From the sequence record OR062946.1: a DNA stretch of 64,000 bases. The stretch is one strand, 5' to 3'. The notes beneath the pieces were generated by a model. The model worked only from the letters and a program-made list of their open reading frames with translations, was not told the DNA's origin and did not search any database. Both the position numbers and the translations under genes were made by a program. This document shows, in pieces, positions 12,973 to 61,770 of this stretch (the first letter of the stretch is position 1; every line of letters starts with the position of its first letter). The DNA is from Escherichia phage 310Ecol104PP.

Positions 12973-13159
12973 AATAATCTATTGGTAAGAGAGTACGATA
13001 TATTTCAAACTTTGGACCTTTTTCATAAGCATCAAAAGTTTCTGTGAATTTATTATAAGCATATGCATCTATAAATTCAATCATGATTTGTGATACAGAA
13101 GTAGAAACATCTCCACCTTCTTTTTGAGCCACGACAATTGTTTCTAAGTAAGCTTTCAT
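12971..13159 (-). CDS. hypothetical 62-aa protein between ligase and alt
   Basis: ORF with ATGA-type overlap with the gene 30 stop. Confidence 0.4.
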   Translation of the reverse strand: MKAYLETIVVAQKEGGDVSTSVSQIMIEFIDAYAYNKFTETFDAYEKGPKFEIYRTLLPIDY

Positions 13160-14619
13160 AGACCAGTTACCTCATGAAAATCACCAAATACATCTTCGAA
13201 TGTATTAGCTTTAGTTTTATCTTCACGTAAACGAATCGCAATCGGAAGAAATAATTTAACGTAATCAGTGCGGCCATCGGATTTTAACCAACCGTTGCAT
13301 TCGCACTCTAGAATTTTTCCAATATAATAATTTTGGTTTTCCATAATGCGAGTACGGTCAAGTTCATGTGATTTTACACCGGCTTTATCTTTTAAGCCTG
13401 AACCAGCATTTACTTTAATTTTTCCACACTCTGATTCAAGAATAAATCCACCTGCTTTAGTAGGGTCTTTACGGTGAGGATAAATTCCTACAATTTTTAA
13501 ATCAACATCAATTACTTCTTTAAATTTATAGAGATTTTTTGAACGAGCATTTTCCCACAATCCATCGGTATTTTTGAGAATAATACCTTCAAGACCTTGG
13601 TCAATATACTTTTTATAAATTACCTTAGCTTCATCTAGGTTATTTACTACCTGGTTTTCAATTAAAATTACTTTATCATATCCTGATGTCATTTGTTCTA
13701 GTTTAGAAAAACGTACATCATATTTTAAACGAAATGCTGGAAGACCGTATATTTCTACCAACGGAACATAATCCCAGACCTGAAACTTCATGCATTGAGC
13801 TTCTTTTTCTGAAATAGTTCCCTTTAAAGATTTATTAGCGATTCCATTAGAAGTAGTACGTGATTCAGCTACTTCAGCAAACTCTTTAGCTTTACTAATT
13901 TCAGGATAAGCATCAAAAAGAAAATCTAGGCCTTCTGGCTCCTTTTTAACTTGCTCATGGTATACCAATTCGCCATCAATTAACACACCTTCTGGATGAA
14001 TCTGGCGGGCTTCAGCGGTCATTTTGATTAACTCTTCCTTAAGAAGATCTAATCCTAGATATTCATTACCAGCTCGTGATAAAAGACGGACATCATCTAA
14101 TTCATCACCTCTAACTTCAGCAAAACACCGAGCTCCATCTGCTTTTAATTGTGCAAAGGCTGGAAATTTGATATTCTTACTAATGCCTTTTTCATCATAA
14201 GAACTTGCGAGCATTTGAGGTTGTTCAGGAATTAAACCTGGCCAAACTTTGTTCGCAATAGATACTGAAGCGCCACATTCAAGATCTCGCATCATCACTC
14301 GACGCAAAACTTCAACATCATCTTTTTTACCATCGGTGATGTATCCAGTTAATTCCTCAATTGCAGCATTTCCAGTCAATTTCCGAGTAGCTAACGTGAA
14401 TTCAATGAAGTCAAGCATATCGGTAATAGTCAGCATTCCAAAACTCTGGGTAGCAATACCAGGTTTAGGCCATTTCTTTATATAATACTGTAACCCACGA
14501 GAATAAGTCAGACGATATACTCGTTTAAGCAATTCATTATCTTTATTCTTTTCAAGAATTGCTTGCTTCTGCTTAGTTGAACCAATAGATGCTATTTCGT
14601 TCAGAATTTTAAGAATCAT
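13156..14619 (-). CDS. 30: ATP-dependent DNA ligase gp30
   Basis: 487-aa ORF with KADGAR adenylation motif; length equals T4 DNA ligase. Confidence 0.95.
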   Translation of the reverse strand: MILKILNEIASIGSTKQKQAILEKNKDNELLKRVYRLTYSRGLQYYIKKWPKPGIATQSFGMLTITDMLDFIEFTLATRKLTGNAAIEELTGYITDGKKDDVEVLRRVMMRDLECGASVSIANKVWPGLIPEQPQMLASSYDEKGISKNIKFPAFAQLKADGARCFAEVRGDELDDVRLLSRAGNEYLGLDLLKEELIKMTAEARQIHPEGVLIDGELVYHEQVKKEPEGLDFLFDAYPEISKAKEFAEVAESRTTSNGIANKSLKGTISEKEAQCMKFQVWDYVPLVEIYGLPAFRLKYDVRFSKLEQMTSGYDKVILIENQVVNNLDEAKVIYKKYIDQGLEGIILKNTDGLWENARSKNLYKFKEVIDVDLKIVGIYPHRKDPTKAGGFILESECGKIKVNAGSGLKDKAGVKSHELDRTRIMENQNYYIGKILECECNGWLKSDGRTDYVKLFLPIAIRLREDKTKANTFEDVFGDFHEVTGL

Positions 14620-14885
14620 TGTTCATCCTTTAGAGTTTGGTTTACAGCTCTATTATAAATCAATTCATCATTAAGCTCAGTCAAAGACCTATGGTACGTG
14701 GTTCTAACTTTATTTCCTTGCATCCAGTGTTTGACGTAAATGAAACCTTGCTCTACACATTTTTTAAAAATTCGTTCGTCTTTTTGAGCTCGGAATTCTG
14801 GATTGCATCTAAAAAATTGATTTACGTGACCGTAATCACGTGTAGTATTACCTTCATTTTCATAAATAGTGTGAACGACAAACAT
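14616..14885 (-). CDS. hypothetical 89-aa protein (30.1 position)
   Basis: ORF overlapping the ligase start by 4 nt. Confidence 0.5.
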   Translation of the reverse strand: MFVVHTIYENEGNTTRDYGHVNQFFRCNPEFRAQKDERIFKKCVEQGFIYVKHWMQGNKVRTTYHRSLTELNDELIYNRAVNQTLKDEQ

Positions 14886-15748
14886 TAGAATGCTCCTTGG
14901 AAAATATTATCACCACTAGTAAATCTATTAAAATACCCTGCATCACCAGGCTTAGTATAACTCCACGTATGGAATGGATTCATATGATACGGGTGTGTAT
15001 AATATGGATTATATGGATGTGTATAATATGGATTATACGGATTAAATCCAGGAGTTCTCCAGGTAGTGTTCCAACGAAAAGAATCGTTTTTAACCATCTT
15101 CTCAATTACATCTTTTATAGCTTTTTCACTATCAAAACTTTCTTTATTTTCCTTCGGTGAAAAAAGCTTATTTTCTACATCATTCCATGTATAAACTCGC
15201 TGAGCGGTTTTTGGAATATTGTCACGCTCTCCTCGCGCCATCCAATAAACAGGAACATTTAATATTTCACTCGCATGATCGCAGTGGTGAGCGAGATCGT
15301 CAATATAACAAATTACGTTATATTTCTCTTTTGCCTTTTTGAACAACTCTTCTTTTGAAGAATCATGACCACACATCATTACTTCTGAGAAGGCACCAGG
15401 AAAAAGAGCATTCAAATTAAATTGACGATTCAACAGAGCGTCAATAGAATCACCCAACGCTGTAACAGCTACAAAATTATAATCTTCTTTTAATTTGTTA
15501 ATTACGCACAGGGCGTCTTTATATGGAGACAAATAACGAATAAAATCTGAACGATTGTATTTTTCAATTAACTTGACGCCAAGTTCTTCATCACAATTAA
15601 AGAGTTTACCCGGAGAAATAAATTTCTCATCTTGAATCATTTTTAAAATATGTTCTAACGGAAGATTATATTTCTGAGCAAAATAAGGAAGGCCTGATTG
15701 CCAGCTTAAACATACTCCATCAATATCAGTTAAAATAGTAGGCTTCAT
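14885..15748 (-). CDS. HAD-superfamily phosphatase-like protein with Tyr/Pro-rich C-terminal tail (30.2 position)
   Basis: N-terminal DIDGV motif typical of HAD hydrolases; tail NPYNPYYTHPYNPYYTHPY. Confidence 0.65.
   Translation of the reverse strand: MKPTILTDIDGVCLSWQSGLPYFAQKYNLPLEHILKMIQDEKFISPGKLFNCDEELGVKLIEKYNRSDFIRYLSPYKDALCVINKLKEDYNFVAVTALGDSIDALLNRQFNLNALFPGAFSEVMMCGHDSSKEELFKKAKEKYNVICYIDDLAHHCDHASEILNVPVYWMARGERDNIPKTAQRVYTWNDVENKLFSPKENKESFDSEKAIKDVIEKMVKNDSFRWNTTWRTPGFNPYNPYYTHPYNPYYTHPYHMNPFHTWSYTKPGDAGYFNRFTSGDNIFQGAF
14994..15037. repeat. 24-bp tandem duplication inside the 30.2 coding region
   Basis: tgtgtataatatggattata occurs twice with a 4-nt spacer, encoding the repeated peptide. 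Confidence 0.7.
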
Positions 15749-16209
15749 AGAGAGTCTCTTAATAGATTTAACACATCAATAAATTCAGCTTCGGTTAGTA
15801 TTGTATCATCTTTTGTTAGACCACTAGCCATGCTGTGCTTCAAAACTTTTCCTTTCGAGGCTTGTAATGCATCGCGAAAGCCCTTGTTTTGGAACGCTGC
15901 TTCAAAATATGCATTTGTGTATAATTCTTTCCATGCTTCGGAATATCTTGAAAACGGAGTTCCAAGCCAGAACAACGTGCCACGGTCCTGAGCTCTAGCA
16001 TAAGCTCGTCCAGCTTGTTGGGCGGCAAGCCCGGATAACCCAAATATACGACGCTGTTGTTCAACATTTTTCACCTTGCATCCTTGGAGGAATCCTTCGA
16101 GACCTCCAAATTGAATACCATCCATAACGAAAGGCCATTGGGCGAAATTACTTAATGCGCATGATGGCCATCTAAAATTGCTTCTTATCTCTAGCTCAGA
16201 CATTTTCAA
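15745..16209 (-). CDS. NADAR/YbiA-like protein (30.3 position)
   Basis: 154-aa ORF with ALSNFAQWPF motif recalled from NADAR (DUF1768) proteins; assignment from motif memory only. Confidence 0.5.
   Translation of the reverse strand: MKMSELEIRSNFRWPSCALSNFAQWPFVMDGIQFGGLEGFLQGCKVKNVEQQRRIFGLSGLAAQQAGRAYARAQDRGTLFWLGTPFSRYSEAWKELYTNAYFEAAFQNKGFRDALQASKGKVLKHSMASGLTKDDTILTEAEFIDVLNLLRDSL
15840..16067 (-). CDS. embedded alternative-frame ORF within 30.3 (30.3'-like)
   Basis: 75-aa same-strand ORF in a different frame; T4 is remembered to annotate a similar embedded gene. Confidence 0.25.
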   Translation of the reverse strand: MLNNSVVYLGYPGLPPNKLDELMLELRTVARCSGLELRFQDIPKHGKNYTQMHILKQRSKTRAFAMHYKPRKEKF

Positions 16210-16402
16210 TACTTATAATTTCAACATCAGCCCAATGACCATAGCAAGGAAGACGAAATTCAACTGGCCAGTTAGGGTCCTTTTCTAATATAATAGACTG
16301 AACTTGTGGCTCTTCATATTCATCGGTATACGGACCTTTATACGTTACTTTATATGTGACCTTAATGTACTGAATTCCAAAAATCTTATTAATTATATTC
16401 AT
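16196..16402 (-). CDS. hypothetical 68-aa protein (30.4 position)
   Basis: ORF in a tightly packed same-strand train. Confidence 0.5.
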   Translation of the reverse strand: MNIINKIFGIQYIKVTYKVTYKGPYTDEYEEPQVQSIILEKDPNWPVEFRLPCYGHWADVEIISIENV

Positions 16403-21424: not shown

Positions 21425-22645
<1,221 letters not shown>

Positions 22646-61344: not shown

Positions 61345-61770
61345 TTATTCCTTAAAATGTGCTTTCAACATCTGATACAAGGACCATGCATGTTCATTAT
61401 TTTCAATAGTAACTTTCATGACCGGGAATTCTGTGAAATCTTCTATTTGTTCTTGCTCTTTCTCTTCCTGCTCTTGCTCTTCGGCTGCCTGGTATGGATT
61501 TTCCACTTCATCAAAGAACACAGCTTCGCTCGTTGAAAGCCAGATAAAATCTTCATCCAAAATATCTTTACCAGAAGATAACGCCAATTTTCCACTAGAT
61601 GTCACAAGTTTAGTAGGACGACCAAGATAGTCAATATCTGTAACTCTAAAAGGTTCCATACCAAGACGACGTGCATAAATTCCGTTTTCAGTATGGTCCT
61701 TGATAAAATCTTCTTGAGCTTGTTTATTTTTAAATTGATACCATTTATTAACTTCAAATTTAATAGCCAT
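61345..61770 (-). CDS. hypothetical 141-aa protein with acidic Glu/Gln-rich linker (possibly goF by size and position)
   Basis: ORF; naming is positional memory only. Confidence 0.4.

What the first reader, a model, noticed from the sequence alone, without database searches (positions are those of the whole stretch)
14885..15748. HAD-type phosphatase with a Tyr/Pro-rich tail created by a 24-bp tandem duplication
The N-terminus has the HAD signature DIDGV. The C-terminus ends in NPYNPYYTHPYNPYYTHPY, encoded by two exact 20-nt copies 24 nt apart (14994-15037). The tail is low-complexity and could expand or contract by slippage, and the repeat also contains TATAAT-like strings on both strands.
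Basis: seen in the sequence. Interest (0 to 1): 0.45.

Follow-up and report, generated by a model that had tools for sequence, protein, structure and literature searches.

The report
T4 gp30.2 phosphatase with slippery tail
This is the T4-type phage gene 30.2, a probable small-molecule phosphatase whose floppy C-terminal tail carries an 8-amino-acid repeat present in one, two or three copies in different natural phage isolates; it is a neat but ordinary case of repeat slippage in an uncharacterised accessory enzyme.

Summary
The window is a Tequatrovirus (T4-like) genome. ORF 14885-15748 (-) is the orthologue of T4 gene 30.2, between adfN/30.3 and 30.1/DNA ligase.

The repeat is real: exact 20-nt copies at 14994-15013 and 15018-15037, period 24, encoding NPYYTHPY twice. 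It is the strongest tandem repeat in the 64 kb.

The protein does not end there. Another 33 residues follow, ending in a conserved SGDNIFQGAF. The duplication did not create the tail: a roughly 90-residue tail, predicted disordered, exists in all Tequatrovirus and many other T4-like genera. The repeat lies in its hypervariable spacer.

Copy number varies among near-identical alleles:
- D5505: 1 unit
- about 43 records including this one: 2 units
- RPN226: 2 units plus an extra NPY
- BYEP01: 3 units

All alleles stay in frame, so this is length polymorphism, not a switch. The TATAAT strings are codon by-products.

This is a new allele of a known uncharacterised family. Interest is low to moderate.

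The parts
14885..15748 (-). Gene 30.2 orthologue, 287 aa plus stop codon
   Evidence: The ORF is listed. It is 99.9% identical to Escherichia phage 303Ecol101PP and 95.5% to T4 gene 30.2, and 623 phage records carry it. It matches PHROG 420, function unknown, E 3e-89.
15149..15748 (-). HAD-fold catalytic core with a helical C1 cap (residues 1-200)
15713..15727 (-). HAD motif I, DIDGV (D8 nucleophile, D10 acid/base)
   Evidence: D8 and D10 are invariant in 77 relatives. They align to Asp10/Asp12 of mouse cytosolic deoxyribonucleotidase 2jao.
15452..15472 (-). HAD motif II region, VAVTALG (T96)
   Evidence: T96 is at least 90% conserved and A97 is invariant. The motif lies at the end of strand 91-96 of the model.
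15353..15355 (-). HAD motif III lysine (K132)
   Evidence: Invariant in 77 relatives. The assignment as motif III rests on its order in the sequence and is inferred.
15296..15301 (-). HAD motif IV, D150-D151 (Mg2+ ligands)
   Evidence: Both are invariant in 77 relatives. They follow strand 145-150 of the model.
15089..15130 (-). Amphipathic helix after the core (residues 207-220)
   Evidence: Helix 207-220 in the AlphaFold model, block pLDDT about 89. A helix is also present in the P0036 model.
14888..15088 (-). C-terminal tail predicted disordered, rich in Pro/Tyr/His/Asn (residues 221-287)
   Evidence: pLDDT is 39-58. The tail is also disordered in a second allele. It is absent from about half of the family clusters, which are 196-220 aa long.
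15047..15061 (-). Conserved tail motif WRTPG (residues 230-234)
   Evidence: W[RK]xPG recurs in the tails of several T4-like genera.
15011..15034 (-). Repeat unit 1, NPYYTHPY (residues 239-246)
   Evidence: Codon map. The exact 20-nt copy is at 15018-15037.
14987..15010 (-). Repeat unit 2, NPYYTHPY (residues 247-254)
   Evidence: Codon map. The exact 20-nt copy is at 14994-15013. The unit is deleted in D5505 and triplicated in BYEP01.
15035..15043 (-). Partial leading unit NPY (residues 236-238), part of a 9-nt sub-periodicity
   Evidence: TRF finds period 9, 5.1 copies, at 15002-15044. RPN226 carries one extra NPY.
14918..14947 (-). Degenerate copy (GDAGYFNRFT, residues 268-277) of the family's tail motif G(T)GIEYLxxQPT
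   Evidence: Alignments A2 and A3. T4-type alleles have GGIEYLYNRPT.
14888..14917 (-). Conserved C-terminal decapeptide SGDNIFQGAF (residues 278-287)
   Evidence: It is 9-10/10 identical in all 15 Tequatrovirus alleles compared, although the segment just upstream is hypervariable.
15745..16209 (-). Upstream neighbour, gene 30.3 / adfN (NADAR anti-DarT factor); 4-nt ATGA overlap with 30.2
   Evidence: Pfam Phage_30_3, E 1.5e-68. Function taken from PMC11825919.
14616..14885 (-). Downstream neighbour, gene 30.1 (DUF3045); 1-nt overlap with the 30.2 stop codon
   Evidence: Pfam DUF3045, E 2.9e-64. A fused 30.2-core + DUF3045 ORF exists in metagenomes (P0014).
13156..14619 (-). DNA ligase gene 30, the most conserved neighbour of 30.2 across T4-like phages
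   Evidence: ORF, annotated. The ligase lies 0-1 small genes downstream of 30.2 in 8 of 9 distant contexts.

Best explanation
The ORF is the T4 gene 30.2 orthologue. It is an early-region accessory enzyme of the haloacid-dehalogenase (HAD) superfamily with a helical C1 cap.

Inferred chemistry. It most likely acts as a Mg2+-dependent phosphomonoesterase on a small phosphorylated metabolite. Asp8 would attack the phosphate, Asp10 would act as general acid/base, Thr96 and Lys132 would hold the phosphoryl group, and Asp150/Asp151 would bind Mg2+. The best guess for the substrate class is a (deoxy)nucleoside monophosphate, because the only sequence-level affinities are to the 5'(3')-deoxyribonucleotidase family.

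Architecture. Behind the core lie an amphipathic helix and a tail of about 65 residues that is predicted to be disordered. The tail has conserved ends (WRTPG near its start, SGDNIFQGAF at its end) and a hypervariable Pro/Tyr/His/Asn-rich spacer between them.

The repeat. The 24-nt repeat is a recent in-frame duplication inside that spacer. Replication slippage or unequal recombination, on both the 24-nt unit and its 9-nt NPY sub-unit, adds and removes units. Natural isolates therefore carry 1, 2, 2+1/3 or 3 units.

Consequence. The repeat changes spacer length by 8 residues per step. It does not switch the gene on or off, and it probably has little or no effect on catalysis.

What is shown: the fold, the conservation of the catalytic motifs, the repeat and its copy-number polymorphism. 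What is inferred: the phosphatase activity, the substrate class, the mutational mechanism and the near-neutrality of the repeat.
For: Identity of the gene:
- 99.9% to a Tequatrovirus genome, 95.5% to T4 30.2, found in 623 phage records.

HAD assignment:
- D8, D10, K132, D150 and D151 are invariant and T96 at least 90% conserved in 77 relatives that go down to 34% identity.
- The AlphaFold core has pLDDT above 93.
- BFVD neighbours are phage HAD proteins, several annotated as 5' nucleotidase.

Affinity to deoxyribonucleotidases:
- The family profile's only PDB sequence hit near significance is 2jao, E 0.043, with the catalytic Asp residues aligned.
- PF06941 NT5C is hit weakly by 17 of 77 members and PF00702 by 20 of 77.
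- Foldseek TM-scores, normalised to the target, are 0.63-0.71 to deoxyribonucleotidases.

Disordered tail:
- pLDDT 39-58 in this allele and 36-47 in a second allele.

Repeat and polymorphism:
- establish the repeat.
- A synthetic 1-unit allele matches D5505 100% over 127 nt. A synthetic 3-unit allele matches BYEP01 98.9% over 175 nt in one piece.
- The translated series is 279, 287, 290 and 295 aa. About 43 records carry 2 units.

Constraint on the tail:
- All the allele length classes seen differ by multiples of 3 nt (837 to 888 nt).
- The last 10 residues are conserved, while residues 235-277 vary even where the core is 200/200 identical.
Against: - No Pfam or NCBIfam model reaches threshold for this protein.
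- The HAD fold also supports mutases, phosphonatases and dehalogenases.
- No experimental data on 30.2 were found in the paper library.
- Conserved motifs in the tail argue that the tail is not mere junk, so spacer length could matter functionally.
Confidence: 0.72

Rival explanations
1. The tail is a functional docking arm, and the repeat tunes its reach. The conserved motifs (WRTPG, G(T)GIEYLxxQPT, SGDNIFQGAF) would be short linear motifs that tether the phosphatase to a phage or host partner. Changes in spacer length would be selected, not neutral.
For: - The motifs are conserved across genera within otherwise unalignable tails.
- The reading frame and the last 10 residues are always kept despite frequent indels.
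- The G(T)GIEYLxRQPTSK motif also ends three unrelated small metagenomic proteins.
- Tail cassettes swap between genes with identical cores.
Against: - About half of the family clusters lack a tail altogether.
- The window's allele has a degenerate GIEY motif, GDAGYFNRFT.
- AlphaFold gives no docked conformation in either allele.
- No partner is known.
- In annotated phages the motif occurs only in 30.2.
Confidence: 0.3
2. gp30.2 acts on nucleic-acid ends as a polynucleotide 3'-phosphatase like the T4 Pnk phosphatase domain, working with the adjacent DNA ligase in repair.
For: - Weak PHROG 415 (polynucleotide kinase) hit, E 0.0012.
- 30.2 sits next to the DNA ligase gene in 8 of 9 distant T4-like contexts.
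- BFVD lists polynucleotide kinase/phosphatases among the distant structural hits.
Against: - The model has a full helical cap between motifs I and II (helices 16-86). In HAD enzymes such a cap generally encloses small substrates, whereas Pnk-type phosphatases are capless (established HAD classification, from my own knowledge).
- The same genomes already encode Pnk with a HAD_PNKP domain nearby.
- T4-like genomes are broadly syntenic, so adjacency is weak evidence.
Confidence: 0.08
3. gp30.2 works with its translationally coupled upstream neighbour AdfN (30.3) in countering DarT DNA ADP-ribosylation, for example by disposing of a phosphorylated ADP-ribose product or by acting as the unidentified T-even cofactor.
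For: - The stop of 30.3 and the start of 30.2 overlap by 4 nt.
- Acinetobacter T4-like phages keep the 30.3-30.2 pair.
- PMC11825919 reports that AdfN does not work fully outside T-even infection and suggests an additional T-even protein may be needed.
Against: - 30.2 is kept in many T4-like phages that have no 30.3.
- In UGJNEcP4, 30.3 is truncated while 30.2 is intact.
- Ectopic AdfN alone complements the adfN deletion during infection.
Confidence: 0.07
4. The repeat region is a regulatory DNA element: an internal promoter formed by the TATAAT strings, or a phase-variation switch.
For: - Exact TATAAT occurs twice on each strand.
- One 10/12 sigma-70-like site lies on the minus strand at 15061-15032.
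Against: - Promoter-like sites are not enriched: 12 against 7.6 +/- 2.7.
- There is no T4 late-promoter TATAAATA.
- The strings are forced by the TAT-AAT and TAT-TAT-ACA codons.
- The unit is 24 nt and every allele is in frame, so no on/off switching is possible.
- T4-type alleles lack the repeat yet keep the same gene order.
Confidence: 0.03

Closest known systems
Bacteriophage T4 gene 30.2 product (uncharacterised; PHROG 420)
   Same: It is the orthologue. The position between 30.3/adfN and 30.1/DNA ligase is the same. The core is 197/200 identical, and the WRTPG and GDNIFQGAF tail ends are the same.
   Different: T4 has 278 aa against 287 here. Its spacer reads NPYNPYHPYQTHPFQTWNY, without the NPYYTHPY duplication, and it keeps the canonical GGIEYLYNRPT motif, which is degenerate here (GDAGYFNRFT).
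Cytosolic/mitochondrial 5'(3')-deoxyribonucleotidases (NT5C family, PF06941; PDB 2jao, 2i7d, 4yih, 3bwv)
   Same: Capped HAD fold and the DxDGV motif with both catalytic aspartates. It is the best sequence-profile hit (E 0.043), shares 16-21% identity, and gives TM-scores normalised to the target of 0.63-0.71.
Phage-encoded HAD '5' nucleotidase' proteins (BFVD entries from Pectobacterium phage CBB, Dinoroseobacter phage R5C, PhiW-14 and others)
   Same: Same fold and size of core (about 195-205 aa), with TM-scores normalised to the target of up to 0.84.
   Different: Only 12-24% identity. Those proteins have no tail. Their names are database predictions, not assays.
In-frame tandem-repeat length polymorphism in disordered protein segments (VNTR-like coding repeats)
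   Same: A short in-frame unit varies in copy number among close relatives without disrupting the flanking sequence.
   Different: There are only 1-3 units. It is not a surface or antigenic protein, and no phenotype is known.

Membership tests
HAD (haloacid dehalogenase-like) superfamily | Rossmann-like alpha/beta core with a cap insertion | tested here: met
HAD (haloacid dehalogenase-like) superfamily | Motif I DxDx(T/V), with a nucleophile Asp and an Asp at +2 | tested here: met
   D8-I-D10-G-V. D8 and D10 are invariant in 77 relatives and align to the catalytic Asp pair of 2jao.
HAD (haloacid dehalogenase-like) superfamily | Motif II Ser/Thr, motif III Lys/Arg, motif IV acidic pair | tested here: met
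   T96 is at least 90% conserved, and K132, D150 and D151 are invariant. T96 and D150/D151 lie at the ends of the strands expected for their motifs. The assignment of K132 to motif III rests on sequence order, not on coordinates.
HAD (haloacid dehalogenase-like) superfamily | Match to a curated family model above threshold | tested here: not met
   The window protein has no Pfam or NCBIfam hit. Relatives hit PF00702, PF06941 and PF13419 only weakly, best E 1.2e-4, below the gathering scores.
HAD (haloacid dehalogenase-like) superfamily | Mg2+-dependent phosphoryl transfer through an aspartyl-phosphate intermediate | not testable with these tools
   Needs an enzyme assay.
NT5C 5'(3')-deoxyribonucleotidase family | Sequence membership (PF06941 gathering score) | tested here: not met
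   No hit for the window protein. 17 of 77 relatives hit it weakly.
NT5C 5'(3')-deoxyribonucleotidase family | Closer in sequence or structure to NT5C members than to other HAD subfamilies | tested here: inconclusive
NT5C 5'(3')-deoxyribonucleotidase family | dNMP phosphatase activity | not testable with these tools
   Needs an enzyme assay.
Pnk-type polynucleotide 3'-phosphatase (capless HAD) | No cap domain, so that nucleic-acid ends can reach the active site | tested here: not met
   The model has a helical cap between motifs I and II, helices 16-86. The PHROG 415 hit is weak, E 0.0012.
Phase-variable (contingency) simple-sequence repeat | A change in unit number shifts the reading frame or the promoter spacing | tested here: not met
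   The unit is 24 nt (sub-unit 9 nt). All alleles of 278-295 aa are in frame and keep the same C-terminus.
Slippage-prone coding tandem repeat (length polymorphism) | Copy number differs among otherwise near-identical alleles | tested here: met
   D5505 has 1 unit, about 43 records have 2, RPN226 has 2 plus NPY, and BYEP01 has 3. The last 100 nt of the gene, downstream of the repeat, are 98-100% identical to the window.

The most novel reading that the evidence does not exclude
The tail of gp30.2 may be a modular docking arm. Its conserved peptide, G(T)GIEYLxRQPT(S/A)K, would be a portable C-terminal motif that also ends unrelated small phage proteins, and it would target a common host or phage hub. 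The NPYYTHPY repeat would set the length of the tether. In that case gp30.2 could be a localised phosphatase, possibly the unidentified T-even factor that AdfN needs, rather than a free-floating metabolic enzyme.
Probability: 0.1. Interest if true: 0.55.

Novelty: new member of a known kind. Interest (0 to 1): 0.25.

Why it matters
Gene 30.2 is kept next to the DNA ligase gene throughout the T4-like phages, yet it has no assigned function. Pinning it to the HAD phosphatase chemistry gives a concrete assay to run.

The 1-, 2- and 3-unit allelic series is a clean natural example of repeat slippage in a phage coding region. It also marks the tail spacer as the fastest-changing part of the gene.

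Neither point changes how we think about phage biology, unless the tail turns out to be a targeting device.

Tried and rejected
- Direct family searches of the protein found nothing useful: Pfam and NCBIfam gave no hit, and phmmer against PDB gave only a chance hit.
- The afdb50 fold library was not available.
- A second AlphaFold run, on an allele with the canonical GIEY motif (P0036) and a tail-bearing alignment, tested whether the motif docks on the core. The tail stayed at low confidence and the core got worse with the shallow alignment.
- A search with a tail-only profile, looking for other protein families that carry the tail, gave only fragments of 30.2 plus three small proteins sharing the 12-14-residue motif at E about 1-2.
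- Following those three small proteins led to short metagenomic contigs of small ORFs and to a family with hypervariable C-termini, but no function.
- A back-translated motif scan of IMG/VR and a tblastn search of annotated phages found the motif only in 30.2 orthologues. One 41-kb hit lay antisense to a tail gene and was judged to be chance.
- I tested whether the tail co-occurs with 30.1 or 30.3. It does not: tail-less UGJNEcP4 has 30.1, and tailed VPA32 and Cronus lack both.
- The promoter reading of the TATAAT strings was rejected.
- Literature searches for gp30.2 found no functional study. The T4 genome review was not in the library.

Full report
**What the region is.** The 864-nt ORF at 14885-15748 on the minus strand encodes 287 residues. 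Its DNA is 99.9% identical to Escherichia phage 303Ecol101PP and 95.5% identical to phage T4. It matches 623 records in the phage collection, almost all Tequatrovirus and related T4-like phages of enterobacteria. In annotated records it is gene 30.2.

The neighbouring genes are:
- upstream, gene 30.3 (Pfam Phage_30_3, E 1.5e-68), which overlaps the 30.2 start by 4 nt;
- downstream, gene 30.1 (DUF3045, E 2.9e-64), which overlaps the 30.2 stop by 1 nt;
- then DNA ligase, gene 30.

Gene 30.3 was recently named adfN. It is a NADAR enzyme that removes DarT1 ADP-ribose from DNA (PMC11825919). No paper in the library reports a function for 30.2.

**Check of the observation.**
- DIDGV is at residues 8-12.
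- The two exact 20-nt copies are at 14994-15013 and 15018-15037, 24 nt apart, exactly as stated.
- TRF reports period 24, 2.3 copies, score 98. This is the highest score in the window; the next are 52-57.
- It is the longest short-range exact repeat in the 64 kb. The next is 12 nt, and 30 shuffles reached at most 14.
- On the coding strand the units are residues 239-246 and 247-254, each NPYYTHPY. They are preceded by a partial NPY and differ only at two synonymous third positions.
- A 9-nt sub-period (NPY) runs through the same stretch.
- One statement is wrong. The protein does not end at the repeat: 33 residues follow, HMNPFHTWSYTKPGDAGYFNRFTSGDNIFQGAF.
- Exact TATAAT occurs twice on each strand within the repeat.

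**The enzyme.** Direct searches give no curated family. The only hits are PHROG 420 of unknown function and a weak hit to polynucleotide kinase.

A database search found 100 clusters of relatives in T4-like phages of Escherichia, Klebsiella, Erwinia, Serratia, Acinetobacter, Shewanella and others, with lengths of 176-347 aa. In an alignment of 77 of them, reaching down to 34% identity, D8, D10, K132, D150 and D151 are invariant and T96 is at least 90% conserved. These are the four HAD motifs in their canonical order.

AlphaFold, run with this alignment, gives a core with pLDDT above 93 and a helical insertion between motifs I and II.
- By Foldseek against the PDB, the 50 best hits listed are almost all HAD-family enzymes; E reaches 2e-8 and 111 hits have E <= 0.001.
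- The viral structure library returns phage HAD proteins, several named 5' nucleotidase.

The family profile's only near-significant PDB sequence hit is mouse cytosolic 5'(3')-deoxyribonucleotidase, E 0.043, with the catalytic aspartates aligned. Individual relatives weakly hit PF00702 (20 of 77) and PF06941 NT5C (17 of 77). Some GenBank records already call the gene HAD-like, putative phosphatase or 5'-3' deoxyribonucleotidase.

**The tail.** Relatives fall into tail-less forms (about 196-220 aa) and forms with tails of 50-150 residues. The tails cannot be aligned across genera except for short motifs.

In the class to which this protein belongs, the order of elements is:
1. an amphipathic helix;
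2. W[RK]xPG;
3. a variable spacer rich in Pro and aromatic residues;
4. G(T)GIEYLxxQPT;
5. a short end.

In this window the helix is residues 207-220. Everything from about residue 225 on has pLDDT 39-58. A second model, built on an allele with the canonical motif, also left the tail at low confidence.

The repeat sits in the variable spacer. Among 15 other Tequatrovirus alleles, identity to the window is:
- core: 97-100%;
- residues 201-234: 91-100%;
- residues 235-277: 62-100%, and only 62-82% with 5-11 gapped positions in the twelve alleles of a different tail type (L011 and L021 are identical to the window, L022 is 39/43);
- last ten residues (SGDNIFQGAF): 90-100%.

Three alleles with a core 200/200 identical to the window carry the T4-type spacer. 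Spacer cassettes therefore move, or change, independently of the core. The duplication did not create the tail. It lengthened an existing hypervariable spacer by eight residues.

**Copy number across relatives.** I built 1-unit and 3-unit versions of the 151-nt region and searched the phage collection.
- The 1-unit version matches Escherichia phage D5505 at 100% over all 127 nt.
- The 3-unit version matches Escherichia phage BYEP01 at 98.9% over all 175 nt in a single piece.
- About 43 records, roughly 37 distinct phages, have the 2-unit form.

The translated alleles are:
- D5505: 279 aa, one unit;
- this window: 287 aa, two units;
- vB_EcoM-RPN226: 290 aa, two units with one extra NPY between them;
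- BYEP01: 295 aa, three units.

In all of these the last 100 nt of the gene, downstream of the repeat, are 98-100% identical to the window. Other alleles show further small in-frame changes, for example an SG duplication before the terminal motif. Gene lengths of 837, 840, 843, 846, 849, 852, 855, 861, 864, 873 and 888 nt were seen, all multiples of three.

The region therefore expands and contracts, on both the 24-nt and the 9-nt period, and selection keeps the downstream peptide in frame. This fits replication slippage or unequal recombination. It rules out an on/off switch.

**The promoter idea.** Promoter-like sites in 14400-16400 number 12, against 7.6 +/- 2.7 in shuffles. There is no terminator-like site and no T4 late-promoter TATAAATA. 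The TATAAT strings are the direct result of TAT-AAT (Tyr-Asn) on the coding strand and TAT-TAT-ACA read in reverse. I find no reason to treat them as signals.

**Genomic context in distant relatives.** In Shewanella phage Thanatos-1, Acinetobacter phages, Klebsiella phage VPA32, Erwinia phage Cronus and several metagenomic T4-like contigs, 30.2 lies zero or one small gene upstream of DNA ligase. In one contig it lies two small genes downstream of the ligase.

Gene 30.3/adfN is present only in some of these phages. It is truncated in UGJNEcP4, where 30.2 is intact. Gene 30.1 is also optional. One metagenomic ORF fuses a tail-less 30.2 core to DUF3045 (P0014). Because T4-like genomes are broadly syntenic, the adjacency to the ligase is weak functional evidence. 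The data do show that 30.2 does not depend on AdfN.

**Side lead.** The motif GTGIEYLxRQPTSK also forms the exact C-terminus of three small proteins (76-81 aa) with three different N-terminal parts. One of these belongs to a family whose members share an N-terminal domain of about 47 residues and have unrelated C-termini. Their contigs are short and made of small phage-like ORFs. In IMG/VR and in annotated phages the motif was found only in 30.2. This hints at a portable C-terminal peptide. The profile E-values are about 1-2 and no function is known, so I record it as unexplained.

**Verdict.** The HAD reading and the slippage prediction are both borne out. The claims that the duplication created the tail and that the TATAAT strings matter are not.

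This is a new allele of a known, uncharacterised phage HAD family, with a well-documented coding repeat polymorphism. Interest is low to moderate (0.25). The most novel reading still open is that the tail is a docking arm whose length the repeat sets. I put that at about 10%.

Noticed in passing
P0104, P0105, P0106; loci L039-L041, L046-L049: The tail motif of gp30.2 orthologues, GTGIEYLxRQPTSK, is also the exact C-terminus of three small metagenomic proteins (76-81 aa) with three unrelated N-terminal parts. The P0104 family has a conserved N-terminal domain of about 47 residues and hypervariable C-termini. This may be a portable C-terminal peptide module. Its function is unknown.
   Followed up: partly
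window 15745-16209 (-): The gene immediately upstream, with a 4-nt overlap, is 30.3 / adfN, the NADAR anti-DarT1 counter-defence enzyme described in PMC11825919. That paper notes AdfN may need an additional T-even protein. 30.2 is a positional candidate, but many phages that lack adfN still keep 30.2.
   Followed up: partly
P0014 (302 aa): A metagenomic ORF fuses a tail-less 30.2 HAD core to a DUF3045 (gene 30.1) domain, E 8e-15. It could be a genuine fusion that hints at a functional link between 30.2 and 30.1, or it could be a lost stop codon or an assembly error.
   Followed up: no
L002, L014, L015, equivalent to window about 14915-14920: A second small in-frame duplication in the same tail. 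Some Tequatrovirus alleles read TSGSGDNIF instead of TSGDNIF, a 6-nt SG duplication just before the conserved terminal peptide.
   Followed up: no
L003, L017, L018 against the window: Three phages have a gp30.2 core 200/200 identical to the window but carry the T4-type spacer (21/34 identical, 10 gaps). This shows mosaic exchange of the tail cassette within the gene.
   Followed up: partly
P0067, P0069, P0082: Some relatives (Yersinia phage phiR1-RT/TG1 type, 312-328 aa; one of 347 aa with a Cys-rich end) carry quite different, apparently folded C-terminal extensions in place of the Pro/Tyr tail. No Pfam match was found.
   Followed up: partly
window 22600-22639 and 61450-61491: Two other weak tandem repeats are present in the window: period 21, and period 15/21, with TRF scores 52-57. 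They were not examined.
   Followed up: no
L025 / KF925357.1 (HY01) and KR233165.1 (PEC04): In these records the 151-nt repeat region spans 152 nt, although the annotated CDS is still 864 nt and the tail translation is identical. This implies a 1-nt indel in the blast alignment, or compensating differences nearby. It was not resolved.
   Followed up: no
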